NCBI GenBank assembly: GCA_016182495.1
Contig: JACPGK010000019.1
Coordinates: forward strand, 1-63,545
DNA from: Candidatus Kerfeldbacteria bacterium
GTDB lineage: Bacteria > Patescibacteriota > Patescibacteriia > UBA9570
Direction: 5' to 3'
DNA length: 63,545 bases
Position 1 is the first letter of the stretch. Each line of letters starts with the position of its first letter. This document shows, in pieces, positions 7,183-60,413 of the stretch. Both the position numbers and the translations under genes were made by a program. Below the pieces are notes generated by a model. That model was given only the letters and a program-made list of their open reading frames with translations. It searched no databases and had not been told where the DNA came from.

Positions 7183-9384
7183 TTAAACAATCGGCGCTTC
7201 AAAGGTTTCTTCTTTACCGCCAACCTGATTAGTATTCTCTTCATCGCTATACAGTTGAGCCATTAACGTATCAATTTCAGCCAATGAGATAGCATACTGT
7301 TGACGATTATAATCGATAATATTTTGAGCGAAGTTTGGTTCCGGAATCGACGGAACATCTACGGTGATAGCCGAAAACGGCTGGGTAGTTTGACCTTCCA
7401 CACTCATTTTGATTAACATTTCGCGCACGCCAAGATTAATAAAATCTTCGGTGCTAAAAATAGGGGTAAATTCATTCGATAAATAGGTACCATCATCAGC
7501 CCCAACACGCATAGCAATAATTGAACCGATATTACCAAACACCGTGCCTTTAATGCGGGCAGGTACTTGAGCTAAATATTGGTGTGAAATAGTCAGTAAC
7601 AAACGATATTTACGCGACTCGGATAAAATATTTTCAAAGGTTTCAGTGGCAAAGTTTTGGAATTCATCAATGTACAGGTAAAAATCTTTCCGTTGTTTCT
7701 CGGGTAATTTAGCCCGTTCCATAGCTGTTTGATAAATTTTAGTAATCATCATAGCTCCCAGTAAAGCGGCGTTTTCTTCACCCAAGCGGCCTTTGGATAA
7801 TTCAATCAACACCACTTTTTGATTATTCATGATATCATCAAAGCTGAATTTATTTTTCGGTTGCGCCACAATATTGCGAATTAAGTGGTTCGATAAAAAC
7901 TGACCTAGTTTATTAACCAACGGCAGAATAGCTTCATTATCAAATTTTTCGGACCAGCTGGAAAATTCATTGGCCCAAAAATGTTTTACCACGGAATCTT
8001 TAATTTCCGGGATCACTTTTTGTCGAAATTTACGATTCGTTAACATTTTCATCATGCCGACAATGGTTGATTCTGGATAATCTAACATAGCCAGAGTAGT
8101 GTATCGAAACACATGTTCAATTTTTGGCGACCAGTCACCACCGAAGAATTTTTCAAATACCTCAATCAGGCCTTGAGTGACTTGTTGCTTCATATCCAGC
8201 GATACGTTTTCTAGAGGATTAAAAGCCATTGGCCACTCAAAATCGGCTACATTAAAATACACGATATCTTTCATCTTACGTTCTGGTATGTACTTGATGA
8301 TATCTTGAATCAAGTCACCGTGCGGATCCATCACGCAGACGCCTTTATCTTTAATAATATCGTCGATAATAAAAGTTTCCAATAATTTTGATTTACCAGA
8401 ACCAGATTTACCCACTACATACAAATGGCGCCGGCGGTCATCACGCCGAATACCAAATTTTGTTTTAATTCCGCGAAAATTAGTATAACCAAAAAAAGTG
8501 GCTGCATCAGCTGGTGTGTTATTGGGCGTAGGCAAATTAAAAGGAGGTTGGGCTCGTTTCGATAGCACCCAGTTAATGGCCGGTAACTTTAAGCGAGGAT
8601 CAGGAATATGAAACAGTGAGGCGATTTCTTCTTGGGTCAAGACAATCCGTTTTTCTAAATGACGCTGGACAAAATCTTTAATAAACTTTTGCGTTTCTGG
8701 TATAGCGGTAAATTTAATTCTATTTTTTTCCGCTGAAAATTCATGAGTAGACCGTTGAATTTCATCAATTCGCTGTTTAGCTTTAACGCTATCGGCTTCT
8801 GGAAAGAAATAAATAAAGCGCATAGCGGCATCGAATTTTGGTAATTCTTGCGATTCACCGCTGCGTTTACTTTCGCCATAGAATAAACCACTCGATTCAC
8901 TGTCGAGTTCTTCATTTAATGGTTGCAACACCAGCTGGAACCACACCGCATGACGAGCCGGAATAGAAGAAATAATATTGATAAAAGAACTCAATGGATC
9001 ACTCGGAGCCGTGGTTTTATAGGTACGCAGTGAGTACTGTTCATTTTGAGCTAAATCCATGTAATAGGCCAAGGCATGATCTGGCACATGTTCCAGATCA
9101 TTAAACCGTTCGATCAGTTCAATTTCAGTATCTGGAAACACCGAAAAGATCATATTCTTCATGGTGTTAGCGTTGCTTTTGGCAGTGGTAATGTAGAAAT
9201 TTAATTTATTATGGATTGAAATTACTTCGCAGGCCAGTAGAGCATTTTGGCCGGTTTCATTTTTCAGTAAATAGTAAAAATTATGAAACAAACGTTCAAA
9301 TTTGCCGATATGATCATCAATCGGCGATAGCGGAAAACGCATTAATAGCGTAGCACGATTATCCATCAATTTATATTTTAACAA
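7183..9384 (-). CDS. FtsK/HerA/TraD-superfamily P-loop ATPase, type IV secretion coupling-protein-like
   Basis: 733 aa with Walker A LYVVGKSGSGKSKLL followed by VCVMDPHGDL, Walker B-like DFYLYIDEFQNF, and a C-terminal ..LLLTISHQYLAQV.. motif as in TrwB/VirD4-type ATPases. Confidence 0.75.
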   Translation of the reverse strand: MLKYKLMDNRATLLMRFPLSPIDDHIGKFERLFHNFYYLLKNETGQNALLACEVISIHNKLNFYITTAKSNANTMKNMIFSVFPDTEIELIERFNDLEHVPDHALAYYMDLAQNEQYSLRTYKTTAPSDPLSSFINIISSIPARHAVWFQLVLQPLNEELDSESSGLFYGESKRSGESQELPKFDAAMRFIYFFPEADSVKAKQRIDEIQRSTHEFSAEKNRIKFTAIPETQKFIKDFVQRHLEKRIVLTQEEIASLFHIPDPRLKLPAINWVLSKRAQPPFNLPTPNNTPADAATFFGYTNFRGIKTKFGIRRDDRRRHLYVVGKSGSGKSKLLETFIIDDIIKDKGVCVMDPHGDLIQDIIKYIPERKMKDIVYFNVADFEWPMAFNPLENVSLDMKQQVTQGLIEVFEKFFGGDWSPKIEHVFRYTTLAMLDYPESTIVGMMKMLTNRKFRQKVIPEIKDSVVKHFWANEFSSWSEKFDNEAILPLVNKLGQFLSNHLIRNIVAQPKNKFSFDDIMNNQKVVLIELSKGRLGEENAALLGAMMITKIYQTAMERAKLPEKQRKDFYLYIDEFQNFATETFENILSESRKYRLLLTISHQYLAQVPARIKGTVFGNIGSIIAMRVGADDGTYLSNEFTPIFSTEDFINLGVREMLIKMSVEGQTTQPFSAITVDVPSIPEPNFAQNIIDYNRQQYAISLAEIDTLMAQLYSDEENTNQVGGKEETFEAPIV

Positions 9385-31078: not shown

Positions 31079-31300
31079 ACAGTAGGGGTCACTTTAGTCT
31101 TGTTGTCTGAAAAGAAGTCGCTGGACGAGAAAATGGCGCGGATTGAACAAAAGCAGAATGATTGGCTCGAACCGATGAAAGAATGGATAAAAGTCGCTTC
31201 AAACCTCGTCAAAATCGCAAGGGATAGCAACCTTTTGGAGAAAAAGGTTGCCGCCAAAGAAATCTTTGGCTCGAACCTGCGCTTGGCGAGCCGCGCCGTG
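31079..31300 (+). pseudogene. 3'-terminal remnant of a large serine recombinase gene
   Basis: ..LSEKKSLDEKMARIEQKQNDWLEPMKEWIKVASNLVKIARDSNLLEKKVAAKEIFGSNLRLASR.. is collinear with the C-terminus of the intact recombinase at 55664-57220 (..WLELSLQLISDANLAKK....NFIKKIGSNLLLRER..). The frame opens right after a stop at ~31076 and has no catalytic domain. Confidence 0.55.
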
Positions 31301-31382
31301 CGCGGCGAGCCAGTGTTTCCCTATTCAGCCGCGCGAAGCGCGGCCAATCTCGTCGGGCAAATTCCCGAAAGTCAAATTCTGA

Positions 31383-31466
31383 TGGGCAGAGAGGGATTCG
31401 AACCCCCGAAGACCAAAGGTCGCTTGGTTTACAGCCAAGTGCGATTGACCGCTCCGCCATCTGCCC
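31383..31466 (-). tRNA. tRNA-Tyr (anticodon GTA), type II long variable arm, no encoded CCA
   Basis: Minus strand gggcagatggcggagcggtcaatcgcacttggctGTAaaccaagcgacctttggtcttcgggggttcgaatccctctctgccca: acceptor gggcaga/tctgccc, anticodon stem cttgg/ccaag, loop ctGTAaa. Confidence 0.9.
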
Positions 31467-31596
31467 ATAATAGCAACTACGCCCCTTACATATACAGGAA
31501 CTAAAAAGAAATGTAAAGTAAACAACAGCATGCCTTCAACCGAACGTCTGGCCATAATGATTATTGCTAGTAAAGTGTTTTATCGTCACAACTCAA

Positions 31597-50383: not shown

Positions 50384-50445
50384 ACAAGGTATTATACGAC
50401 GAATGTCTTAGATTGCCTAGTTTATTATTTGACGTAATTTCTGTT

Positions 50446-50467
50446 GGACGAAATTCGAGGATTTTTT
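50446..50467. repeat. 22-bp junction motif ggacgaaattcgaggatttttt, copy 1
   Basis: Identical 22-mer at 52057-52078. The 13-bp core ggacgaaattcga is also present inverted at 55441-55453. Confidence 0.85.
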
Positions 50468-50475
50468 ACAGAGCG

Positions 50476-50915
50476 TTAGCGCGCTTGCGTGACGAGAGGC
50501 GCGTCTACCCATGTAACCAAAGACTCGTCGTGAAGCAGTTCAACTGTTAGAGAAGAGGGTGGTGTGAAGTCTGTCGTGTTGAAGAAAATATTGAAGAGAC
50601 TTTTCGTTGTGGTTTGCAAAGTTTCCGTACCGGTGCAGCGGCCGGCAGACACACGGTCAAAAAGGTTGTACTGAAAATAGAGTCGGTCTTTTGACTTGCT
50701 GACGTTTGCGTTAAGATCCAGAGCGAGCTGATCATTGTCAAGTTCTACCTCGGATTGAGCTGTTGTCGTTGTGCGCAGGGCGCCAGCCGCGTTTGATAGA
50801 TTTCCGGGTTGCTGTTTTTGGAGCAACGTTGAAATAGCGAAAGCTCCAATGATAGCCGCAACTGGAGGATAATAATGAGCTCAATGATATTTTGATTGGC
50901 AGAAAGCGTTGCCTA
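50476..50915 (-). pseudogene. degraded type IV pilin/pseudopilin-like gene (frameshifted N-terminus)
   Basis: One frame reads ..NIIELIIIL.. (50867-50893). The adjacent frame continues VAAIIGAFAISTLLQKQQPGN.. into the 116-aa ORF, which together form a class III signal/hydrophobic helix split by a frameshift. No Met start. G+C is higher than the flanks. Confidence 0.35.
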
Positions 50916-50969: not shown

Positions 50970-51950
50970 CTATTTTTTCAACAATTGTAACACTAACCGC
51001 ACCATGCGTTGTTTATTTTTCGGATCACTTTCAGCAATCAGCAATGTTAGAACCGTTAACGCTGCTGGGGTTATTTTAGATGTATTGAGTAACCGAGCTT
51101 TTTTCAAAAACCAAATAAACGCATACGCCCCACTACGCTTATTACCATCCACAAACGGATGATTTTTGATCATAAAATATAACAGATGAGCTGCTTTTTC
51201 TTCAATCGTTGGATAAACCGCTTTACCACCAAACGATTGCATTACATTTCCAATAATACCTTCAATACTGCCTGTATTTTTTTCTAAAGCAAAAATATCC
51301 GTAGTCTCGCCTTTGCGGATTAACTCCTGTTTTAACAACGCTAAAGCAGTGATGAACTCGTTGGCATTCAGTTTTACAGATTTTTTGCTGGCACCAACAT
51401 CAGCTAATGCGTCTCTATCATAAGCATCCAATGAAAGCCAAGTATCAGCAAAAGTTGAAATTAATTCTAAAACGTCCCCATGAGAAATATTAGATTCCAC
51501 TGGCAATAACTGCTTGATGTTTTCTATAGCTTTTTGAAATTCTGTGTAGTTATGTTTAATGCTTGTTTTGTTGATTGTAAATCCTTTCGTGATGTGCTCA
51601 CGCAAAACTTTAGTTGCCCATTTACGAAATTCTATGGCGCGTTTAGAATTTGTACGATAGCCAAGCGCAAGAATAATATCTAAATTATAAAATTGTACTT
51701 GATAAATTTTTCCATCATTTCCAGTATGTGCAAAATTTGCACATACTGAACGTTCATCTAGTTCCTTATCTTTTAAGATATTTCTAATATGCTTAGTGAC
51801 TACCGAACGCTCAATATTAAAAATATCCGCAATCTGTGTCTGGTTTGCCCAAATCGTATCTTTCTGAACATCACCCTTCAGCTTAATCGCACCAGTTTTA
51901 GTTTGATAAATCACTACCTGATTGTTTGGGAATTTCTTTGGCTTCATATC
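50970..51950 (-). CDS. RhuM-like N-terminal domain fused to Fic/DOC domain
   Basis: From MKPKKFPNNQVVIYQTKTGAIKLKGDVQKDTIWANQTQIADIF..YNLDIILALGYRTNSKRAIEFRKWATKVL (RhuM pattern). The C-terminal Fic motif is HPFVDGNKRSG. Confidence 0.85.
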   Translation of the reverse strand, partial: DMKPKKFPNNQVVIYQTKTGAIKLKGDVQKDTIWANQTQIADIFNIERSVVTKHIRNILKDKELDERSVCANFAHTGNDGKIYQVQFYNLDIILALGYRTNSKRAIEFRKWATKVLREHITKGFTINKTSIKHNYTEFQKAIENIKQLLPVESNISHGDVLELISTFADTWLSLDAYDRDALADVGASKKSVKLNANEFITALALLKQELIRKGETTDIFALEKNTGSIEGIIGNVMQSFGGKAVYPTIEEKAAHLLYFMIKNHPFVDGNKRSGAYAFIWFLKKARLLNTSKITPAALTVLTLLIAESDPKNKQRMVRLVLQLLKK

Positions 51951-52056
51951 GATACATTGTACTCTAAAAATAGTGGCTTGACTACGATATAACTGCATCG
52001 CAAAATGCTACTAAGACTAAATTAGTTCGAAAGTCGTTTACTTGGCAGTCCTTGTC

Positions 52057-52078
52057 GGACGAAATTCGAGGATTTTTT
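52057..52078. repeat. 22-bp junction motif ggacgaaattcgaggatttttt, copy 2
   Basis: Identical to 50446-50467. Confidence 0.85.
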
Positions 52079-52099
52079 GAGAAAAATCCAGAAGGGTAA

Positions 52100-52140
52100 G
52101 CCCGGCGGAAGGAGGGGTGTGGGGAGGAATTCCGCCGGGC
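52100..52140. other. 11-bp-stem hairpin (gcccggcggaa ... ttccgccgggc) inside the left IR arm
   Basis: Perfect 11-bp stem. Its counterpart at 55362-55405 has gcgcggcggaa/ttccgccgcgc, a compensatory C:G to G:C swap. Confidence 0.6.
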
Positions 52141-52370
52141 TAGAATGCGTTTAATCTGCTTGAATCAAATATCCATCTTGCCAGGAATAGGCAAAGGGTG
52201 AATACAAAAACTGATGTGGCTGGGTTAGTGAATGCGTCGGCAATTTTAATTCTTTCACAATCGGGTGAAGTTCTTCACGATTGGAGAGAATGGTTCACTT
52301 ATGGTCTTGTAATTATAGCTATTTTATGGTAAATTTCTTCTAATGAATCTAGAAAAATATACTTATCATT

Positions 52371-55352
52371 ATGCCTCGTAGTCCGGATATTGTTGGTTTT
52401 GGTCGCGGAAGAAGTGTGGATCAACGCGGACGACTACGTCAAGAAATTGATGAGTCTGGGCATGAGAAATTGGAAGATGATCAAGAGCATGGAGAAAAAG
52501 AAATCTTGTTTGCGCGTGGCTTAGAATTATTCGGCCGAGGTTTAGATAGAGATGATTTTCAGACGGGAGATAATTTTGCGTCGGCCTATAATCATATTAT
52601 CGAGGTGCTAGACCCCAAATTATTGGCTGAGCTTGATTTTTGGGAACGCATTTTTGCTCAATATGAAAAATGTATTAGCGCGGTAGGAGTCTTTGCAGCA
52701 TTGCCTCACCATATTCAGGATAATCCAGATATTCAAGCATACTTTTTTTCTAGGCCACATTTTAACACTCCTTATCTGCCACGCACGGTTATGGAGAGAG
52801 TAGATGCGGACTTAGTGGTACCGAAATGGTTAGAGCTGGGAGTTAGTGAGCATACTTTTTCTCAAGCACCCTGGAAACATTTTGATCAAGATCAAAAACG
52901 TCAATACGTTACAACAGCACTCGAAGCCAGTATTCCTATACGAGTGCTCGATGGCACACGCCGTGAATTTATTGATGCCATACCGAAAGATGAATGGAAC
53001 GGCATTGCACGAGAACGTTACCAAGCCGATCCAGATGCGATAGCTGTGTTGGTTAAAGACGATTTTGATCGCGCTACCGAACTTTTTTCAATGGAAGATT
53101 TAAGAACTTCTTTAGAGCGCCCGGTTGAACGATGGGGAGCTGTTGGCATCGCTGCACCGCCACAATTTGCAGGATTGTCCCTACCCTTACTGCGTCGTCT
53201 TGGTTTTGAGGAAGACAAAATAGATACCTGGAAGAGCATAGTCGCACAACCAAATAGCAACCTTGATAGTGGTTTTCATGATTTTGAAAAGATGACATCA
53301 GCCGACCGTGATTGGATTCTAGGACAGTTAGAAACCCGCGCTCAAGTACTGGATGCGGGCTATCAAGCATTTGTCGGCGAGACATTACCAAAATTATTAC
53401 GTAAATTAGCGCCAGCGGCCGTAGAGAAAACGCTTGAGACCCTGCAGCCTCTTTTACGTGAGTGGAATTTACCGACTAGAGATGTTGCAGATGGTATTTT
53501 GAAGCCTACCATAGAGAGTCAAGGAGCGTCGGCTTTTCGCACCTATGAGATACTCGCAGAAAGAGTAGATTGTTTTGATGCTGGAGATATTACTTTGCTG
53601 AATCTATTATGTCCAAACAAAGAGTCAGCCAAGGTTTTAAGAAACCTCATGTCAAAAACTGGAGCTCGTTTTCAAGATTTCATGGCTTTTTATTTGGATA
53701 CTCGGTTTGGTAGAGACCGCGCCGGTGTATTAAAAGGCGCGGGCGTCCCTTTGTCAGATGAAAAGAATATCGTCATTTATATTGACTCACGTTTACCCTG
53801 GACACCCCCATATTTTAGAGAGTTTGAAACTCGTATTGCGTCTGGCAAGAATTCCAGGGTGGTTGCCGAGGAGTTAGGTCGAGAAGTTCAGACACAGATT
53901 CAGCAAATTCAAGCTGGCAAGTGGCCAGAAGACGGATTAGATGACAATAAACTAGGATTGCTATCACACGTTTTTCCTCCAGCACTCGGGGTATCGCGTA
54001 ATGAATATGCCCGTCTGGTTAGGCGCCGCGAAGATAGGCAAGATGATATTCCAGTAGAGTGGGACGCGTTGCAAGGTAAAATAATCTCGTTTCCAGTTGG
54101 CAAGTGGGAATTACAAGCTGACGCACAATTTGAAACGGCACCATGGAGTCGACTAAGTGAAGTAGTAGCAGATGTAAATGGCAGAAAAATTATTCCTGAG
54201 GATAGAGAAACGCAGCAAACCAATGAACTTGTACTCGGTCCTAATCGCATTATTGAGATCGGTCGTGAATTTGCGCGAATACTCACTGATAATAGCGCTA
54301 GCGCCACAAAGAATGCTTTACGCAACGGCTATGCTGTCTTTTTATTGAGGGGGGGGTCCAAGCTGCCTGAGTTTGTATCTGGCCGTGAGGAGGCTGTCCG
54401 CGTATTTGAATGGTCCAAAGATGCACTGCGGGATACCGTGGACCACGCCTTGCGCATGTATCGCGAAGCCAATGCAGCCTCATTTGATGATGATATAGCC
54501 CAGGCAACCAAGCGAGAAGTACCGCCTCGGGCTAAACGTGGCATTGTGAAGGGAATTTTGGGTATTCTAAAACACGAGACTATGGCCAGAGAGGAGAAAT
54601 CACAACGTATCAGGACGATCCTGGCTACTGCTGGCGTAGCGCTTGAGGGTGATATTGTGGGACAGCTACAACCAACTGGTGATCAGTCAGTATTGACGGA
54701 AGAAGGGATTACATTATCGTTAGATCAGTTATTGGCCGGAGCACAGACTAAAACTGCCGAAGCTGGAAAGTTATCTTCTATTATCGTGCAAAAATTACTT
54801 GGCGCAGAGGCTGAGACAATGGAAAAAGAACTTGACAAATGGACCTTTGTGGAAGGAGCTGAAGGAGGAGAGCAACGCACTATCCGATTTGAAATTACAA
54901 AACGTAAACTCCATGCAGTTGCTGGATTAAATAGTGGGGTCTGTGTGGCAGTTGACGACCAGTTATGGAATAAACCTGACTTTGCAAACGTGGTCATGTT
55001 TGCAGATGATGATATTGCCCATGGTGGTATGCATTTTGAGATTGTTCAAGATGGTGGCAAAAAGTATCTTTCTTTACCAGGAATAAACCCAAGTCTCACC
55101 TTATTACGCGAAGTTGACCCGCAACGTGTAATTCAAATGATGTTGGAGTATGCCAAAGCTTGTGCGAAAGCGATTGGTGCAATTGGAGTGCTGATTCCAA
55201 CCAATACAATTATTCTCTCCAACCGTGAAGAACTTCACCCGATTGTAAAAGAATTAAAATTACCGACGCATTCACTAACCCAGCCACATCAGTTTTCGTA
55301 TTCACCGTTTGCCTATTCCTGGCAAGATGGATATTTCGTGAAGGCAGCCTAG
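52371..55352 (+). CDS. 993-aa orphan protein, no recognisable domain
   Basis: Single long ORF. G+C is visibly higher than the neighbours. Its last ~47 codons lie inside the right IR arm. Confidence 0.8.
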   Translation: MPRSPDIVGFGRGRSVDQRGRLRQEIDESGHEKLEDDQEHGEKEILFARGLELFGRGLDRDDFQTGDNFASAYNHIIEVLDPKLLAELDFWERIFAQYEKCISAVGVFAALPHHIQDNPDIQAYFFSRPHFNTPYLPRTVMERVDADLVVPKWLELGVSEHTFSQAPWKHFDQDQKRQYVTTALEASIPIRVLDGTRREFIDAIPKDEWNGIARERYQADPDAIAVLVKDDFDRATELFSMEDLRTSLERPVERWGAVGIAAPPQFAGLSLPLLRRLGFEEDKIDTWKSIVAQPNSNLDSGFHDFEKMTSADRDWILGQLETRAQVLDAGYQAFVGETLPKLLRKLAPAAVEKTLETLQPLLREWNLPTRDVADGILKPTIESQGASAFRTYEILAERVDCFDAGDITLLNLLCPNKESAKVLRNLMSKTGARFQDFMAFYLDTRFGRDRAGVLKGAGVPLSDEKNIVIYIDSRLPWTPPYFREFETRIASGKNSRVVAEELGREVQTQIQQIQAGKWPEDGLDDNKLGLLSHVFPPALGVSRNEYARLVRRREDRQDDIPVEWDALQGKIISFPVGKWELQADAQFETAPWSRLSEVVADVNGRKIIPEDRETQQTNELVLGPNRIIEIGREFARILTDNSASATKNALRNGYAVFLLRGGSKLPEFVSGREEAVRVFEWSKDALRDTVDHALRMYREANAASFDDDIAQATKREVPPRAKRGIVKGILGILKHETMAREEKSQRIRTILATAGVALEGDIVGQLQPTGDQSVLTEEGITLSLDQLLAGAQTKTAEAGKLSSIIVQKLLGAEAETMEKELDKWTFVEGAEGGEQRTIRFEITKRKLHAVAGLNSGVCVAVDDQLWNKPDFANVVMFADDDIAHGGMHFEIVQDGGKKYLSLPGINPSLTLLREVDPQRVIQMMLEYAKACAKAIGAIGVLIPTNTIILSNREELHPIVKELKLPTHSLTQPHQFSYSPFAYSWQDGYFVKAA

Positions 55353-55465
55353 CGCATTCTAGCGCGGCGGAATTCCTCCCCCTAACCCCCCTCCTTCCGC
55401 CGCGCTATTCCGCTGTGTTTGAATTTTGGATATAATATATTCGAATTTCGTCCGCTAAGGACTGC
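55212..55465. repeat. right arm of ~250-bp imperfect inverted repeat
   Basis: See 52045-52291. It ends with tcgaatttcgtccgctaaggactgc, the reverse complement of the left-arm outer terminus apart from 2 mismatches. Confidence 0.85.
55362..55405. other. 11-bp-stem hairpin (gcgcggcggaa ... ttccgccgcgc) 10 nt after the ORF993 stop; possible terminator or recombination structure
   Basis: Perfect stem, C-rich 22-nt loop, no downstream T-tract. Confidence 0.5.
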
Positions 55466-55614
55466 ATAGAAGTACATTGTGAAAATTGGTGACCTCCCGC
55501 GCCGCAGCCGCACGCGCGTTTGGCCAATAGCTCCCAGGCATTTTGCCAAACGAGCCCCACCTTCCGCTCGCGCAAAAGGAGGTTCGGCGCCGGAACGGCG
55601 CAAACAAACCTCAA
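55405..55614 (-). pseudogene. inverted 3'-terminal remnant of a serine recombinase gene
   Basis: The minus-strand frame reads ..NLLLRERKVGLVWQNAWELLAKRACGCGAGGH.., versus ..NLLLRERKVGLAWQNAWELLAKRACGCGARGH.. at the end of the intact gene. There is no upstream catalytic region. Confidence 0.65.
55498..55586. repeat. GC-rich 89-bp inverted repeat, left copy
   Basis: Its reverse complement equals 57006-57094 except for 2 adjacent substitutions (tt vs cc). Confidence 0.9.
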
Positions 55615-55663
55615 TATTTCAAAAAGTGTTTAAGCCAATCTTTTTAAACCCAAAAGCGATATT

Positions 55664-57220
55664 ATGAAATATTTCATCTACGCTAGAAAATCCACAGACG
55701 AGGCCAACCGGCAATTACTGTCTATTGAGGCACAAATTGCTGAACTACAAGAATTGGCAACTAAAGAAAGGTTACAAGTAATAGAAATTCTTACTGAATC
55801 CCGAACAGCCAAAGAACCCGGTCGGCCGATCTTTAACGATCTCTTGCGGCGTATTGAAAACGGTGAAGCTGCCGGAATACTGTCGTGGCATCCTGATAGA
55901 CTGGCGCGTAATTCTGTTGACGGCGGGAAGATTATTTATTTGGTGGATACCGGCAAGCTTCAAGCACTTAAATTTTCGACATTCTGGTTTGAGAATACGC
56001 CGCAAGGCAAGTTTATGTTAAATATCGCTTTTGGGCAGTCAAAGTATTACGTTGATAATCTTTCAGAAAACGTGAAGCGAGGTTTGCGTCAGAAAGTGCG
56101 CCGTGGAATATTGCCCGGTCGTGCGCCGCTTGGGTACCTAAATGACAAAGCCAATCATACTGTTATTCCGGATCAGCAAAAATTCAAACTTGTGCAAAAA
56201 CTTTTTGAACTGTACGCAACTGGCGACTATTCACTGCAAGCTGTTAGTCATGCTATTGCCGAGTTAGGTCTAGTTAGCCCAAGCGGCAAACCGCTGGCTA
56301 TTTCCAACACCCAGACTATTTTGCAAAATCCATTTTATTACGGCGCACTAAGGTTCAACAGCGAATTGTACGAAGGCAAACACGAGCCAGCGATTACCAA
56401 GCAAATGTATGACCAAGTGCAAGCGGTCATGCAACAAAAGGCTAAACCAATGAAGAAGCATTCGTACTTTGCTTTTCGAGGATTATTATTGTGCGGTGAG
56501 TGCGGGGGAAGCATTACATCTGAACGCCAAAAAAGACACGCCTATTATCGCTGCACAAAGAAACTGGGTAAATGTATGCAACCGTATATTCGCGAGGAAC
56601 TTTTGGCTGACCAGCTCAAAGCTTTTGTGCAGCAAGTGTCGATAGATGACCAACTGGCTAGTAAAATGTCCGCCTACCTCAAAGAACAGGCAAATAAAGA
56701 TAACTCCTCCGCACTCACCGTTACCGAAAAACTCGAAAAGCAAATAACTGAAAGTAAAACCAAGCTTGACCGCTTGCTAGACGCTCATCTGGAAGGCGCG
56801 ATTGATAAAGAAACGTATACTACCAAAAAGAATCAACTGTTGAATCAAAAGATTGAGTGTGAACAAAAATTACAAACTTTCAAGCAAACATGTAATCGCT
56901 GGCTCGAACTTTCGTTGCAATTAATTTCTGACGCAAACCTAGCCAAAAAAATACCTTTGACTGGAAATTTCGAAGAACTTCGTAATTTCATTAAAAAGAT
57001 TGGCTCGAACCTCCTTTTGCGCGAGCGGAAGGTGGGGCTCGCCTGGCAAAATGCCTGGGAGCTATTGGCCAAACGCGCGTGCGGCTGCGGCGCGCGCGGG
57101 CACGAATTGGACACTTGTCTTGGATGGCAGTCGTGGCGTGACGTTATTAGAACTATAGTAGATAACTACTTAGAATTCAAGTTTGCTGCAAGCTATATTC
57201 AGACTTACTTTACTTCGTAG
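55664..57220 (+). CDS. large serine recombinase (resolvase catalytic domain + recombinase domain + zinc ribbon + coiled coil)
   Basis: 518 aa. The N-terminus MKYFIYARKSTDEANRQLLSIEAQ.. carries the catalytic Ser. Also ..SWHPDRLARN.., the zinc ribbon LLCGECGGSITSERQKRHAYYRCTK, and a long C-terminal coiled coil. Confidence 0.92.
   Translation: MKYFIYARKSTDEANRQLLSIEAQIAELQELATKERLQVIEILTESRTAKEPGRPIFNDLLRRIENGEAAGILSWHPDRLARNSVDGGKIIYLVDTGKLQALKFSTFWFENTPQGKFMLNIAFGQSKYYVDNLSENVKRGLRQKVRRGILPGRAPLGYLNDKANHTVIPDQQKFKLVQKLFELYATGDYSLQAVSHAIAELGLVSPSGKPLAISNTQTILQNPFYYGALRFNSELYEGKHEPAITKQMYDQVQAVMQQKAKPMKKHSYFAFRGLLLCGECGGSITSERQKRHAYYRCTKKLGKCMQPYIREELLADQLKAFVQQVSIDDQLASKMSAYLKEQANKDNSSALTVTEKLEKQITESKTKLDRLLDAHLEGAIDKETYTTKKNQLLNQKIECEQKLQTFKQTCNRWLELSLQLISDANLAKKIPLTGNFEELRNFIKKIGSNLLLRERKVGLAWQNAWELLAKRACGCGARGHELDTCLGWQSWRDVIRTIVDNYLEFKFAASYIQTYFTS
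57006..57094. repeat. GC-rich 89-bp inverted repeat, right copy (inside the 3' end of the recombinase gene)
   Basis: See 55498-55586. Confidence 0.9.
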
Positions 57221-57922: not shown

Positions 57923-58855
57923 TTATTTTATTCTAGCCTTAATGACATCCATAACGATCTCTTTTAATTCCGCAGCATTATTATAGCTGTAGCATTGGTA
58001 GTGCTTAGTATAAAAATCTAGAGGAGATTTATCTGCATTTACTTCTTTATTGTAAACATAAATCGTATCTATACCAAGTGCTTGTGCAAAACCAGCTTCA
58101 TAGAATACACTTGCCCTTCCATTCGTTAAGTCAACAACCACAAATCTGCTATTTCGTATTTCACCTAAAGCTTTATCAATAATTTTTTCAGAAAAATGGT
58201 CACCCCATAAGCATGTTGGAATATAATCGGATTCTTGGATAGCATTTTTTATTGCATTTATTGAAGAATCCATTACGTCATCAAACCATGCAGCAATGAA
58301 AGCATTATTGCTAGCTTTAGAGTTATGCTGGTTTAAATTCCAGGCCGAAGCTGTTAAGCTAATAGAATAAGGCGTGTCGTCAAGTGTAAGTACGCTGCCT
58401 ATATTTATTAGGCCGCTCTCTTTTAAAAAAAATATTAAAGCCCTAAATTCTTCGCTATTATGAGCATAGGCTAGTGAATAGTCGTGATTGAATGATGGTT
58501 TTAAAGTCTTACCAAAATATGTAGATTTTTCTTTTAACCTTATCAAAAGTTTATTTGCTTTTGCTTCAATATTTGATAAATCAGGCACTAAGTAATGTTT
58601 TAAATAATCATCAATATTCTCAGTAACAAACCTTGGAGGCTTTTCACCCAGTTCTTTTAGTTCACGTGCCACACCAGACAAAATATAGCCTACACTATCA
58701 ATTTTGTTTAAAGTATCCTTATCTGCCGTGCAGTTACCTGATATTTCAAAATCTCCACAACATGGGCAGATTACATAGTAACCATACCATTTTGTTTCAG
58801 ATCGGATTTCTATTTTCTCGTTTTTACACAGAGGGCATTGATTTATTGTATCCAT
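57923..58855 (-). CDS. Zn-ribbon + central (wHTH-like) + C-terminal nucleoside 2-deoxyribosyltransferase/TIR-like Rossmann domain protein
   Basis: 310 aa. N-terminus: CPLCKNEKIE...ICPCCGDFEIS. C-terminus: NAFIAAWFDD....I..AI.......C........KIIDKALGEIRNSRFVVVDLTNGRASVFYEAGFAQALGIDTIYVY, which follows the FIA.-F ... D-x-T ... V-x-Y-E-x-G-x-A pattern of the NDT-like/TIR-like flavodoxin-fold family. Confidence 0.7.
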   Translation of the reverse strand: MDTINQCPLCKNEKIEIRSETKWYGYYVICPCCGDFEISGNCTADKDTLNKIDSVGYILSGVARELKELGEKPPRFVTENIDDYLKHYLVPDLSNIEAKANKLLIRLKEKSTYFGKTLKPSFNHDYSLAYAHNSEEFRALIFFLKESGLINIGSVLTLDDTPYSISLTASAWNLNQHNSKASNNAFIAAWFDDVMDSSINAIKNAIQESDYIPTCLWGDHFSEKIIDKALGEIRNSRFVVVDLTNGRASVFYEAGFAQALGIDTIYVYNKEVNADKSPLDFYTKHYQCYSYNNAAELKEIVMDVIKARIK

Positions 58856-58872
58856 AGCATCGTTGATATATT

Positions 58873-59439
58873 TTAATCAGATTCAACACCAAGAAGTTTT
58901 CTAAATTCATTTTCAAGTTTTTCTTTTGCTTTTGGTACATCGCTACTTATCTTATTCCATGCTTGATCCCAAAAATCTAATACCTCGTTACTACTTTTGT
59001 CTGGTTCATGATCTTTGCGTTTAAAAAGTTTGAATGACTCCTTGAGTGAAAGCGTGATAGTGTCTAATAGAACGCACAGTTCTTTTTGAAAGAAAATTTT
59101 ATTTTGATCGTAATACTCAATAAAATCGTTAGCCTCTTCAACTGCTTTATTCATTTTATCTTCAATCTTTTGTCCATCAAATTGAACGGGGCTAATCAAA
59201 GACTGCATAGATGTTATGGATTTTGATAGTTTACCATACAAATTTTTGATTACTTCGGCTCGTTCTGAATGTAGCCTATCAAATTTTATTTTATGCTCTT
59301 CAGCCAATTTTAATACCTCAAGTTTATATTTTTCAAAATCCTTGTTAAGCCAGTGTTTAATAATAGACCTAATTAAAAACGCTAGTATACCTGAGCCTAT
59401 GAAAAAATATAAAATATTTTTGATTACTTCTAAAGTCAT
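58873..59439 (-). CDS. N-terminally TM-anchored coiled-coil protein (hypothetical)
   Basis: 188 aa with one TM helix (ILYFFIGSGILAFLIRSII), then a helical, charged sequence. Its start overlaps the upstream stop (ATGA). Confidence 0.65.
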   Translation of the reverse strand: MTLEVIKNILYFFIGSGILAFLIRSIIKHWLNKDFEKYKLEVLKLAEEHKIKFDRLHSERAEVIKNLYGKLSKSITSMQSLISPVQFDGQKIEDKMNKAVEEANDFIEYYDQNKIFFQKELCVLLDTITLSLKESFKLFKRKDHEPDKSSNEVLDFWDQAWNKISSDVPKAKEKLENEFRKLLGVESD

Positions 59440-60413
59440 ATATTTGTTGTAATACGCTTGATACCATCTGGGAATAAAGATACGAGAGAACTGACTTTTA
59501 TGCCTCCTTTTTTTCTTTGCATTTCGTCAGCTGATATTTTCCAATCAACTATGTTGCCCTCAGGCTTGCCCAGCAAATCTATATTGATTTTAATTTTAAT
59601 GTCAGTAATTTTTTGCCTTGTCTCAGGGTGTATAACACCTAGATCATTTGTGTATTGTCTGGCTTGAAGAAAGGCATACAAATCATCAATGTTGTCTAAT
59701 CGTTGTTCTTGCGCTATTTCAATCAAGTTTTTTGGTGGAAAGAATATAAGTAGCTGTACATATTTTGCTATTTTTTTACCTCTATTTCGTATAAATAATC
59801 TTAGGTCAATTTCTTCACTCCATCCATTTTCTGAAATTATTAATTCTTTACTCCGATTCAGTGGTTCAACCTCAAGACTTAAAACTGGGGAAAGTCTTTT
59901 TCCGAAAAATAATTCCAATACAAAGTGTTCCATTGGCTTTGATTCTGTTCCTATTCGTCTATAGTATCTAAAATCCTGAAGATTTTGGTGAGGAGCAGAC
60001 TCACTTTTGGGTATATAAAGTATCAAATACTTTTTTGTTCCTGACTCAACGATGTGTTTACTAATACCATTAATATTTGGTTGAATTCCAGAGGCGATTA
60101 CTCTATCAATAGTTTCAATATTTAATGGATCAATTGATTCTAGTTGATTAGGCTTAGTTTTATCACTAGGGTCAGTTGCGATCCCATAGATGATTACACC
60201 ACCTCCTGAGTTGGCCATTGCGCTAATATCCTTCTTGATTTCTTTTTTGTCAGAGTCGGTGAAGTTACGAGAAGCTGTTTTATATTCTAAAATCTCTGAT
60301 TCACGGATGCTACTATCAATAAGACCTTGCAAGGCAGCAATGCCACCACTAGTAACTTGTCTAAACAAATTTTGTACTTGCTCCATAATTTGCTTATTAT
60401 CCCTAAAAATCAC
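59436..60413 (-). CDS. AlbA_2 (Schlafen-like) DNA/RNA-binding domain protein
   Basis: 325 aa: ..SIRESEILEYKTASRNFTDSDKKEIKKDISAMANSGGGVIIYGIATD.....YLILYIPKSESAPHQ....FRYYRRIGTESKPM matches the AlbA_2 pattern E..lEfK...i.k.i.AfaN..GG.l.iGv ... yiR.gs. Confidence 0.75.
   Translation of the reverse strand: MIFRDNKQIMEQVQNLFRQVTSGGIAALQGLIDSSIRESEILEYKTASRNFTDSDKKEIKKDISAMANSGGGVIIYGIATDPSDKTKPNQLESIDPLNIETIDRVIASGIQPNINGISKHIVESGTKKYLILYIPKSESAPHQNLQDFRYYRRIGTESKPMEHFVLELFFGKRLSPVLSLEVEPLNRSKELIISENGWSEEIDLRLFIRNRGKKIAKYVQLLIFFPPKNLIEIAQEQRLDNIDDLYAFLQARQYTNDLGVIHPETRQKITDIKIKINIDLLGKPEGNIVDWKISADEMQRKKGGIKVSSLVSLFPDGIKRITTNI

What the first reader, a model, noticed from the sequence alone, without database searches (positions are those of the whole stretch)
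52045..55465. 3.4-kb unit: a 993-aa orphan ORF bracketed by ~250-bp inverted repeats made from its own 3' end
The reverse complement of 52167-52291 equals 55212-55336 at 120/125. Beyond that, both arms share gcattcta, an 11-bp-stem hairpin, and an identical-type terminus (gcagtcctt..cggacgaaattcga), and both end precisely at that terminus. The gene's last ~47 codons plus its 3' flank are therefore duplicated in inverted orientation upstream of its own start. I see three readings:
- long terminal inverted repeats of a novel mobile unit whose single ORF would be its mobility protein
- an invertible segment acted on by the adjacent serine recombinase
- the scar of two head-to-head copies, one of them deleted

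No target-site duplication is visible outside the termini (cgtttacttg vs atagaagtac).
Basis: seen in the sequence. Interest (0 to 1): 0.7.

Follow-up and report, generated by a model that had tools for sequence, protein, structure and literature searches.

The report
Recombinase-linked invertible gene cassette
The repeats around the 993-aa gene are not transposon ends: they are one of two adjoining repeat pairs of a serine-recombinase gene cassette that is widespread in ultra-small (CPR) bacteria, usually sits at tRNA genes, and usually carries anti-phage genes.

Summary
The inverted repeat is real (120/125; arms 52045-52291 and 55212-55465). Only the inner 141 nt is the 3' end of ORF993. The outer ~106 nt is a conserved GC hairpin plus the last 17-19 codons of a large serine recombinase (LSR) gene on the opposite strand. 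The "precise terminus" GCAGTCC is the point where LSR C-termini diverge across the family, so it is probably the recombination core.

A second repeat pair (55484-55586 / 57006-57108) lies 18 nt from the first pair and brackets the LSR gene in the same way. This two-pair, three-core layout recurs across the family:
- 67 of 80 metagenomic LSR loci have the LSR pair.
- At least 20 also have an abutting cargo pair.
- The layout normally sits at a tRNA 3' end, and the cargo examined is mostly restriction-modification, helicase-nuclease or TIR genes.

Different loci show the LSR body and the cargo in either orientation.

ORF993 is cargo: a mostly helical protein with a C-terminal GNAT-like fold, not a mobility enzyme. 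Its relatives elsewhere have no such repeats and no adjacent LSR. The window copy looks old: its arms are 93-94% identical against a family median of 99%, and it has no tRNA. Whether it still inverts cannot be tested without reads.

The parts
52045..52291 (.). Left arm of the cargo repeat pair (A_L). Three pieces: an LSR C-terminal tail remnant on + (52046-52098, QSLSDEIRGFFEKNPEG*), a GC hairpin (52100-52140), and a remnant of the last 47 codons of an ORF993 copy on - (52151-52291).
52043..52050 (+). Core copy s2 (TGGCAGTC), at the outer end of A_L. Non-element DNA (X) lies to its left. It has the form of an attL-type junction X|T2.
52371..55352 (+). ORF993, the cargo gene. Mostly helical, with a C-terminal GNAT-like domain (about the last 175 aa). 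The last 47 codons lie inside the right arm.
55212..55465 (.). Right arm of the cargo repeat pair (A_R). Contains the ORF993 3' end (55212-55352), a GC hairpin (55362-55405), and an LSR tail remnant on - (QSLADEIRIYYIQNSNTAE*, stop at 55405-55407).
55405..55623 (-). 3' remnant of a second LSR gene. It aligns to LSR residues 436-496 at 66% identity (E 5e-19). It forms the central junction s1 (G1|core|T1), an intact inverted attP-type site.
55484..55586 (.). Upstream arm of the recombinase repeat pair (B_L): an inverted copy of LSR codons ~448-482.
55664..57220 (+). Intact large serine recombinase (518 aa) with resolvase, recombinase and zinc-ribbon domains. All family-invariant residues are present, including Ser10.
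57006..57153 (.). Downstream arm of the recombinase repeat pair (B_R), inside the LSR coding region. 57006-57108 is 94% identical to B_L; similarity is weaker up to 57153. Core copy s3 (TGGCAGTC) lies at 57125-57132.
50442..50467 (+). Orphan 26-nt copy of the LSR tail (reads LDEIRGFF in frame; 25/26 identical to the left arm). Probably a relic of an older cassette end. It lies to the left of the RhuM/Fic-Doc gene.
50970..51998 (-). RhuM / Fic-Doc protein, matching the PADLOC candidate defence family PDC-S23. It lies between the orphan tail copy and the left arm and may be cargo of an older cassette.

Best explanation
The 3.4-kb unit is the cargo segment of a large-serine-recombinase (LSR) cassette belonging to a family that is abundant in CPR/Patescibacteria.

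Shown:
- Each arm of the repeat is a convergent gene junction: the ORF993 3' end, then a conserved GC hairpin, then the last 17-19 codons of an LSR ORF on the other strand.
- Each arm ends at a short core (TGGCAGTC / ATGCAGTC). This is the position where LSR C-termini diverge across the family.
- 18 nt from the right arm begins a second repeat pair, made of the LSR's own 3' coding region. It brackets the 5' 447 codons and promoter of the LSR.
- The window therefore has the family's canonical layout: X | A_L - cargo - A_R | B_L - LSR body - B_R | Y, with three core copies: s2 (+), s1 (-) and s3 (+).
- In clean loci, s1 equals the left half of s3 joined to the right half of s2.

Inferred:
- s2 and s3 are the attL-type and attR-type ends of an integrated element. 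Normally Y is a tRNA read antisense.
- s1 is an internal, inverted, intact attP-type copy.
- Recombination between s1 and s2 flips the cargo. Recombination between s1 and s3 flips the LSR body. Either way both genes keep a complete 3' end and a terminator hairpin.
- Recombination between s2 and s3 would excise a 5.1-kb circle in which the LSR regains its conserved C-terminal tail.
- I cannot decide whether the flipping is done by the LSR at the cores or by homologous recombination along the arms.

ORF993 is a passenger, not a mobility protein. It ends in a GNAT-like acyltransferase fold. The window copy looks old and possibly inactive.
For: The LSR fragment matches at E 5e-19 and the ORF993 fragment is 91% identical.

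C-termini of family LSRs diverge exactly at the terminus position.

The LSR repeat pair is conserved:
- It is seen in L012, L013 and L014.
- It is seen in 67 of 80 metagenome loci, and in 37 of the 41 loci with enough flank on both sides.
- Arms are 32-167 nt with median identity 99% and lie 1375-1680 nt apart; the window spacing is 1419.
- The outer end overlaps the 3' end of an antisense tRNA by about 6 nt.

The unused upstream arm is followed, in frame, by a conserved tail LLDKIRTFFxENPDADF*, whatever the tRNA. The window's left-arm tail LSDEIRGFFEKNPEG* fits it.

An abutting second pair is found in at least 20 loci, overlapping the LSR pair by 3-14 nt. The same hairpin with loop GGAAGGAGGGGTTGGGGGAGGAATTCC occurs in those arms. 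Between the window's two arms the stem carries a compensatory C-G to G-C change.

Both orientations exist in nature. The LSR body points towards tRNA-Gln in L012 and away from it in L014. L092 and L066 carry homologous MTase and GmrSD/HNH cargo that is inverted relative to the LSR.

The element is mobile. Clusters at 90% identity hold members whose first 440 residues are identical, carrying either the conserved tail or one of several different tRNA-type tails, from different CPR lineages.

Of the 10 cargo genes from 6 loci that I scanned, 8 match restriction-modification, helicase-nuclease or TIR families.

ORF993 is cargo: its model (pLDDT 85.6) matches GNAT folds, and about 25 loci of relatives have no repeats and no adjacent LSR.
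Against: - No reads are available, so there is no direct evidence that the window segment inverts now.
- The window departs from the canonical layout. There is no tRNA at s3. The arms are 93-94% identical or less, against a median of 99%. The cargo arms run 141 nt into the cargo gene, whereas in 21 other loci they stop within about 50 nt of the cargo stop codon.
- Characterised serine integrases recombine only attP with attB (PMC3783163). LSR-catalysed s1 x s2 or s1 x s3 inversion would therefore be non-canonical.
- Only about half of the loci with at least 5 kb upstream show an s2 copy.
- No circular contig was found.
- No pair of near-identical contigs with opposite orientation was found.
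- ORF993 is not seen as cargo in any of about 87 other LSR loci.
Confidence: 0.68

Rival explanations
1. The arms are substrates for homologous (RecA-type) flip-flop recombination and gene conversion. The LSR acts only at s2/s3 for integration and excision, and the internal copy s1 is never cut by it.
For: Arms are long (75-296 nt) and usually 97-100% identical, far more than the 40-50 bp a serine integrase site needs. That pattern is the signature of concerted evolution. If crossover were only at the cores, the arms would lie inside the flipped segments and would not be needed. Known serine integrases do not recombine attP with attL or attR (PMC3783163).
Against: The three sites share a sharply bounded core, and s1 is an exact hybrid of s3-left and s2-right. 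That is a site-specific pattern. In the window the 25-nt core region is 23/25 conserved while the next 21 nt is only 12/21 (Fisher p = 0.013). I cannot tell this rival apart from LSR-driven inversion with sequence alone.
Confidence: 0.3
2. Deletion scar. A second, inverted copy of an [ORF993 - hairpin - LSR] module once lay head-to-head with the present one. All but its central 247 bp has been lost, and the repeat has no function.
For: The left-arm ORF993 piece is a dead fragment: it has no start and is preceded by a stop. It carries S976L at a family-invariant residue. Within the 42 conserved codons the differences are 4 synonymous to 1 non-synonymous, as if the fragment had diverged while it was part of a working gene. 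The arms are more diverged than is usual for the family. No other locus has arms that run into the cargo gene.
Against: The outer 106 nt and the position of the arm ends follow a layout repeated in at least 20 unrelated loci with unrelated cargo and near-identical arms. Random scars would not do this. The recombinase next door has the same kind of repeat pair, as do 67 of 80 relatives. The numbers behind the synonymous/non-synonymous argument are tiny. This rival could still explain how the arms came to extend 141 nt into ORF993; expansion of the repeat by gene conversion is the alternative.
Confidence: 0.15
3. Long terminal inverted repeats of a new transposon whose single ORF (ORF993) is the transposase.
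For: Sharp, similar outer ends and a single large orphan ORF between them.
Against: The ends are recombinase coding sequence. There is no target-site duplication and no second copy in the window. ORF993 has no match in Pfam, NCBIfam, PHROGs or PADLOC and has a GNAT-like C-terminal fold. Its family sits in housekeeping contexts without repeats, for example next to a Mur ligase gene in L011.
Confidence: 0.02
4. Assembly artefact: a fold-back chimera or a mis-join at a repeat.
For: Many contigs of this LSR family break at or near the arms.
Against: The arms are 76-93% identical, not 100%, and differ by indels in the hairpin loop. A fold-back artefact would give perfect copies. The same layout is seen in dozens of independent assemblies.
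Confidence: 0.02

Closest known systems
Large serine recombinase (serine integrase) integrative elements and prophages (phiC31, Bxb1, TP901-1, SPbeta type; TnpX/TndX, CcrAB)
   Same: The enzyme architecture matches: resolvase, recombinase and zinc-ribbon domains, about 500 aa. Junctions that look like attL and attR lie in direct orientation at the two ends, and the target is usually a tRNA gene. Small cargo islands are carried.
   Different: The attP-type site lies inside the recombinase ORF, so integration swaps the last ~17 codons. An extra intact attP-type copy sits inside the element in inverted orientation, giving two adjoining long repeat pairs. No candidate directionality factor was looked for. 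Known integrases use only attP x attB (PMC3783163).
Hin/Gin/Cin/Pin DNA invertase switches
   Same: A serine recombinase is associated with a segment bounded by inverted sites. In the Hin system the recombinase gene lies inside its own invertible segment (my own knowledge). PinQ-type inversions near defence genes are described in PMC12529663.
   Different: Those enzymes are small (~190 aa) invertases with 26-bp sites and a Fis-dependent enhancer. Here the enzyme is a 518-aa LSR, the arms are ~100-300 nt, and the recombinase gene straddles the site, so its C-terminus changes with orientation.
Yeast 2-micron plasmid (FLP/FRT inside 599-bp inverted repeats) and plastid inverted repeats
   Same: If s2 and s3 are joined, the predicted circle has one pair of long inverted repeats, each with a recombination site inside, dividing it into two unique arcs that can take either relative orientation. 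The repeats are kept near-identical (knowledge of 2-micron is my own).
   Different: FLP is a tyrosine recombinase, and 2-micron is a replicating eukaryotic plasmid. No circular form of this element and no replication gene has been seen here.
Integration-dependent immunity of mycobacteriophage BPs and relatives
   Same: attP lies inside a coding gene, so integration changes the C-terminus of the protein and hence its activity (PMC4557955).
   Different: There the gene is the repressor, the integrase is a tyrosine recombinase, and there is no internal inverted copy.
R64-type shufflons and phase-variable hsdS loci
   Same: Several recombination sites in mixed orientation lie next to one recombinase, and alternative 3' ends are joined to a constant 5' part (my own knowledge).
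   Different: In those systems inversion changes the protein product substantially. Here both arms supply nearly the same 3' end (5 of the last 6 residues plus S976L differ), so ORF993 hardly changes. Shufflons use the tyrosine recombinase Rci.

Membership tests
CPR LSR three-core cassette (defined here) | The LSR gene is bracketed by inverted repeats made of its own 3' coding region, about 1.4-1.5 kb apart | tested here: met
   Window pair 55484-55586 / 57006-57108, 1419 nt apart. In the family, 67 of 80 loci have it, at 1375-1680 nt.
CPR LSR three-core cassette (defined here) | The upstream arm is followed in frame by the conserved tail (LLDxIRTFFxxNP...*) and a GC hairpin with a GGAAGGAGGGG..GGAATTCC loop | tested here: met
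   T1 is QSLADEIRIYYIQNSNTAE* and T2 is QSLSDEIRGFFEKNPEG*, each followed by the hairpin.
CPR LSR three-core cassette (defined here) | A second repeat pair abuts the LSR pair and encloses the cargo; three copies of a short core, with s1 = left of s3 + right of s2 | tested here: met
   Cores lie at 52043, 55458-55465 (-) and 57125. The right half of s3 (K) is only about 60% like T.
CPR LSR three-core cassette (defined here) | The outer end of the downstream arm overlaps the 3' end of an antisense tRNA gene | tested here: not met
   There is no tRNA near 57150; the window's tRNAs are at 22.7, 31.4 and 34.8 kb.
CPR LSR three-core cassette (defined here) | Arms near-identical (median 99%), with cargo arms stopping at the cargo stop codon | tested here: not met
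   The window arms are 93-94% identical in their best blocks and 76-83% elsewhere. The cargo arms include 47 codons of ORF993.
Serine-integrase integrative element | LSR with a catalytic serine and recombinase/zinc-ribbon domains | tested here: met
   Pfam Resolvase, Recombinase and Zn_ribbon_recom match; phrog_95 integrase matches at 3e-78; Ser10 and all family-invariant residues are present.
Serine-integrase integrative element | An empty target site (attB) in relatives and a circular junction (attP) | not testable with these tools
   There are no close relatives of this genome in the collections (ORF993 at most 58% identity) and no reads. No circular contig was found.
Hin/Gin-type invertase switch | Small serine invertase with a C-terminal HTH, 26-bp sites and an enhancer | tested here: not met
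   The enzyme is a 518-aa LSR and the arms are 100-250 nt.
Hin/Gin-type invertase switch | Both orientations present in one population | not testable with these tools
   No reads are available. Both orientations are seen only between different loci or species.
IS / transposon with terminal inverted repeats | A transposase between the repeats, target-site duplication and multiple copies | tested here: not met
   ORF993 has a GNAT-like fold. There is no duplication and only a single copy in the window.
GNAT acyltransferase superfamily (ORF993 C-terminal domain) | GNAT fold | tested here: inconclusive
   Foldseek probability is 1.0 and target TM-score about 0.5 to NatD, GCN5 and AtaT, but E is only 2e-3 and there is no Pfam hit. 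Acyl-CoA binding motifs were not examined.

The most novel reading that the evidence does not exclude
These LSR cassettes would be a distinct, undescribed class of mobile element in CPR bacteria. In its free form the element is a small circle with one pair of long inverted repeats. Each repeat holds an attP inside the recombinase's own 3' coding end, which is a 2-micron-like two-isomer design. Integration at a tRNA splits one repeat copy into the two element ends and clips the recombinase's conserved C-terminal tail. The intact internal copy then lets the recombinase body flip and regain that tail. The result would be a self-contained toggle of recombinase form, and perhaps of directionality, without a separate directionality factor. 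The 3.4-kb ORF993 unit would be the cargo arc of one such element.
Probability: 0.35. Interest if true: 0.85.

Novelty: new variant of a known kind. Interest (0 to 1): 0.72.

Why it matters
The finding leads to a recurrent and apparently undescribed design of serine-recombinase elements. The attachment site lies inside the recombinase gene. A second inverted copy is kept inside the element. Recombinase and cargo each sit between long, near-identical inverted repeats.

These elements are very common in CPR bacteria: 7,827 relatives at E < 1e-20 among the 8,000 candidates scored. Members with identical first 440 residues are found across lineages. They insert at many tRNA genes and carry restriction-modification, helicase-nuclease and TIR genes.

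If the toggle model holds, three things follow:
- It would be a new way to control serine-integrase activity or directionality.
- It would be a ready source of orthogonal recombinases with defined sites.
- It would explain why assemblies of these genomes break at tRNA-linked islands.

It also flags ORF993, a large GNAT-tailed protein family with no annotation, as possible island cargo.

Tried and rejected
- **ORF993 in profile libraries.** Pfam, NCBIfam, PADLOC and PHROGs gave no hit. PDB sequence searches found nothing with the 4-sequence profile and only chance-level matches (best E 0.009) with the 32-sequence profile.
- **First structure model.** The AlphaFold model from 4 sequences was too poor to use (pLDDT 55). 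Its Foldseek hits were noise apart from weak GNAT hints.
- **Repeats around ORF993 relatives.** I searched 8 contig loci and 18 genome loci and found none. This removed the idea that the repeat belongs to the ORF993 family.
- **Rfam on the window.** Only 3 tRNAs were found, and no known RNA in the arms.
- **Circular contigs.** I looked for contigs with terminal overlaps among all LSR loci and found none.
- **Opposite orientations in near-identical contigs.** None were found; shared identity stops at the ~1.7-kb LSR unit.
- **Viral collection.** It held only four relatives at 46% identity or more (L113-L116), three of them truncated at contig ends, and I did not analyse them further.
- **Linear protein-primed replicon with terminal repeats.** I considered and dropped this: there are no polymerase motifs, and the family occurs without repeats.
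- **Diversity-generating retroelement.** I considered and dropped this: there is no reverse transcriptase, and the copy is inverted.
- **Literature.** Seven searches were run. The five aimed at this architecture found no description of it.


Full report
**Observation.** The inverted repeat exists as described.
- The repeat finder returns three collinear blocks: 52156-52291 / 55212-55347 (136 nt, 93%), 52103-52149 / 55353-55399 (47 nt, 83%) and 52045-52090 / 55420-55465 (46 nt, 76%).
- The 25-nt terminus motif occurs only at the two outer ends; shuffles give none.
- ORF993 (52371-55352, +) runs 47 codons into the right arm.

**What the arms are made of.** Translating the strand opposite to ORF993 shows that the outer part of each arm is coding sequence of a large serine recombinase (LSR).
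- On the minus strand, 55405-55614 reads ...NLLLRERKVGLVWQNAWELLAKRACGCGAGGHQFSQCTSMQSLADEIRIYYIQNSNTAE*.
- The intact neighbouring LSR (55664-57220) ends ...NLLLRERKVGLAWQNAWELLAKRACGCGARGHELDTCLGWQSWRDVIRTIVDNY...*. tblastn aligns the fragment to LSR residues 436-496 at E 5e-19.
- The left arm starts with QSLSDEIRGFFEKNPEG* on the plus strand.

Each arm is a convergent junction of three pieces: the ORF993 3' end (141 nt), a GC-rich hairpin with a 12-13 bp stem (z = -5.5 and -4.9 on the ORF993 sense strand), and the LSR tail. The two hairpin copies differ by a compensatory C-G to G-C change in the stem.

**A second repeat pair.** 55484-55586 is the inverted copy of 57006-57108 (103 nt, 94%), with weaker similarity continuing to 57153. 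The LSR gene therefore also has an inverted copy of part of its own 3' end upstream of its own start. That copy begins 18 nt from the right arm of the ORF993 repeat. The first 30 codons of this block differ at one codon only. Identity then drops abruptly.

**The recombinase family.** The LSR has 7,827 relatives at E < 1e-20 among the 8,000 candidates scored. Nearly all that carry a name come from Patescibacteria/CPR, and many sit on contigs barely longer than the gene.

Aligned C-termini diverge exactly after a conserved W(L/Q)x, which is the position of the terminus. Three kinds of ending are seen:
- RDSNP / LDSNQ..SYH
- LLDxIRTFFxxNP
- an immediate stop

In L012 the first kind is the antisense reading of tRNA-Gln, whose 3' end overlaps the LSR stop.

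The LSR repeat pair is a family trait.
- L012 has 124 nt at 100% identity with 1417 nt between the arms. L014 has 85 nt at 95% with 1496 nt. L013 has a weaker pair.
- In 80 metagenome loci the pair is present in 67. It is present in 37 of the 41 loci with at least 250 nt on both sides.
- Arms are 32-167 nt, median identity is 99%, and spacing is 1375-1680 nt.
- The outer end of the downstream arm overlaps the 3' end of an antisense tRNA (Gln, Asn, Ser, Gly, Ala or Trp) by about 6 nt in about 40 loci.
- Read in the LSR frame, the upstream arm runs into a conserved tail LLDKIRTFFxENPDADF* in most loci, whatever the tRNA.

A tail that is conserved as protein but detached from the gene body implies that the body is joined to it at some stage.

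**The cargo pair is also a family trait.**
- In at least 20 loci a second repeat pair is present: 100-296 nt, median identity 99%, arms 1.0-5.8 kb apart. Its LSR-proximal arm overlaps the upstream LSR arm by 3-14 nt.
- Aligning the three junctions in 11 clean loci gives s2 = X|core-T, s1 = G|core-T and s3 = G|core-tRNA. For tRNA-Ser, for example, the core is TGGCGG.
- s1 is the left half of s3 joined to the right half of s2. That is the attR / attP / attL relationship, with the attP-type copy internal and inverted.
- The window fits this pattern. TGGCAGTC occurs only at 52043 and 57125, and ATGCAGTC on the minus strand lies at the central junction.
- The arms of other loci carry the same hairpin. 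In L072 it is almost identical to the window's. In L081, L075 and L068 the loop is reversed.
- I scanned 10 cargo genes from 6 loci. They include EcoRI-type, N6/N4 and Dam methylases, a GmrSD/HNH nuclease, an N6-methylase with a specificity domain, an SF1 helicase with a DUF559 nuclease, and a ThsB TIR protein.

**Evidence that the segments move.**
- L012 and L014 both lie beside dnaX and tRNA-Gln. In L012 the LSR points into the tRNA. In L014 it points away and carries the conserved tail, while the detached arm abuts the tRNA.
- L092 and L066 share homologous methylase and GmrSD/HNH cargo at about 70% DNA identity in opposite orientation, while their LSRs align in the same orientation.
- Within 90%-identity protein clusters, members identical over the first 440 residues carry either the conserved tail or one of several tRNA-type tails. 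The named members come from different CPR lineages.

Taken together, the unit is mobile and both forms exist.

**ORF993.**
- It has no hit in four profile libraries.
- A full-library profile search finds 284 representatives that share mainly the C-terminal ~540 residues, some inside giant proteins.
- Members that carry an organism name come from CPR, Omnitrophota and Elusimicrobiota, with single hits labelled Actinomycetota, Myxococcaceae and Pseudomonadota.
- With a 20-sequence alignment, AlphaFold gives pLDDT 85.6 for residues 455-993.
- Foldseek matches the last ~175 residues to GNAT acetyltransferases (NatD, GCN5, AtaT; probability 1.0, target TM-score about 0.5, E 2e-3).
- Relatives sit in varied places, including next to a Mur ligase gene or among sugar-metabolism genes. 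None of about 25 loci has flanking repeats or an adjacent LSR; the only LSR seen, in L003, lies about 10 kb away.
- No other sampled LSR locus carries an ORF993 relative.

ORF993 is therefore a passenger, not a mobility enzyme.

**How the window copy differs.**
- No tRNA lies at s3. The sequence there (K) only resembles the conserved tail.
- The arms are in the low tail of the identity distribution.
- Uniquely, the cargo arms extend 141 nt into the cargo gene, whereas in 21 other loci they end within about 50 nt of the cargo stop codon.
- The left-arm ORF993 piece is dead: a stop precedes it and it carries S976L at an invariant residue. In the 42 conserved codons it differs by 4 synonymous and 1 non-synonymous changes.
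- This extension could be repeat expansion by gene conversion or the relic of a second cargo copy. I cannot decide between these.
- The 25-nt core block is better kept (23/25) than the next 21 nt (12/21; p = 0.013). That fits either a constraint on the site or the coding constraint on the tail.
- A 26-nt orphan copy of the tail at 50442-50467, followed by ORF116 and a RhuM/Fic-Doc gene (PDC-S23), looks like the end of an older cassette.
- A decayed LSR 3' remnant also reads into tRNA-Tyr at about 31100-31400.

**Mechanism.**
- *Shown:* the three-core, two-pair layout; its conservation; the alternative tails; the orientation differences between loci.
- *Inferred:* s2 and s3 are the ends of an integrated element. 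s1 is an inverted internal attP-type site. Recombination of s1 with s2 or s3 flips the cargo or the LSR body, leaving both genes whole. Recombination of s2 with s3 excises a 5.1-kb circle in which the LSR regains its conserved tail.
- *Undecided:* whether the flipping is done by the LSR, which would be non-canonical for serine integrases (PMC3783163), or by homologous recombination along the arms, which their length and near-identity would favour.
- An attP inside a coding gene has a precedent in integration-dependent phage immunity (PMC4557955).

**Verdict.** The transposon reading is rejected. The invertible-segment reading is supported by comparison across loci, though not for this copy directly. 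The deletion-scar reading is possible only for the inner 141 nt. Five literature searches aimed at this architecture found no description of it.

Noticed in passing
window 55484-55586 and 57006-57108: A second inverted repeat pair (103 nt, 94%). The serine recombinase gene has an inverted copy of its own 3' coding region upstream of its start. This is conserved in 67 of 80 relatives.
   Followed up: yes
window 31100-31400 (+), next to tRNA-Tyr 31381-31467 (-): A decayed 3' remnant of another LSR gene (...FGSNLRLASRAV...LMGREGFEPP) reads antisense into tRNA-Tyr. It is the family's usual position, so this genome once had a second cassette.
   Followed up: partly
window 50442-50467; 50476-50826 (-); 50970-51998 (-): A 26-nt orphan copy of the LSR tail (25/26 identical to the left arm) lies in direct orientation 1.6 kb to the left. 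It encloses ORF116 and a RhuM/Fic-Doc gene (PADLOC PDC-S23, E 2e-107). This may be an older cassette end with defence cargo.
   Followed up: partly
window 52100-52140 and 55362-55405; L014 4230-4285; L072, L081, L075, L068, L095 arms: A conserved GC hairpin with a 19-25 nt G-rich (or, reversed, C-rich) loop GGAAGGAGGGGTTGGGGGAGGAATTCC follows the LSR tail in distant loci. The loop sequence is kept at the nucleotide level and occurs in both orientations. Its function is unknown: terminator, protein site or RNA.
   Followed up: partly
window 55587-55601: A perfect small hairpin GCGCCGTTCCGGCGC sits exactly at the inner edge of the upstream recombinase arm. Similar short perfect GC hairpins occur in the arms of other loci.
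   Followed up: no
L002, L005, L006-L009: Independent assemblies of ORF993 relatives repeatedly break 170-265 nt upstream of the gene. For P0154, all four places shown begin 170-257 nt upstream of the gene (16 contigs carry it). No repeat was found there, so the cause is unexplained.
   Followed up: partly
proteins P0022, P0028, P0029, P0031, P0056: The ORF993 C-terminal module occurs inside giant proteins of 2,700-6,400 aa, once in three copies (P0056). One of these also has a Peptidase_M48 domain.
   Followed up: partly
L052 5706-5779 / 7458-7531; L076 33-123 / 1851-1940; L108 1393-1527 / 7379-7513: Variant layouts occur. In L052 and L076 whole tRNA genes are duplicated in inverted orientation on both sides of the LSR. 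In L108 a single repeat pair encloses cargo plus LSR.
   Followed up: no
window 57923-60413 (-): Low-GC genes (33%) lie to the right of the recombinase. They include a Schlafen/AlbA_2 protein (59436-60413) and a protein with a weak TIR-effector match (57923-58855). The whole region 50-61 kb looks like a defence island.
   Followed up: no
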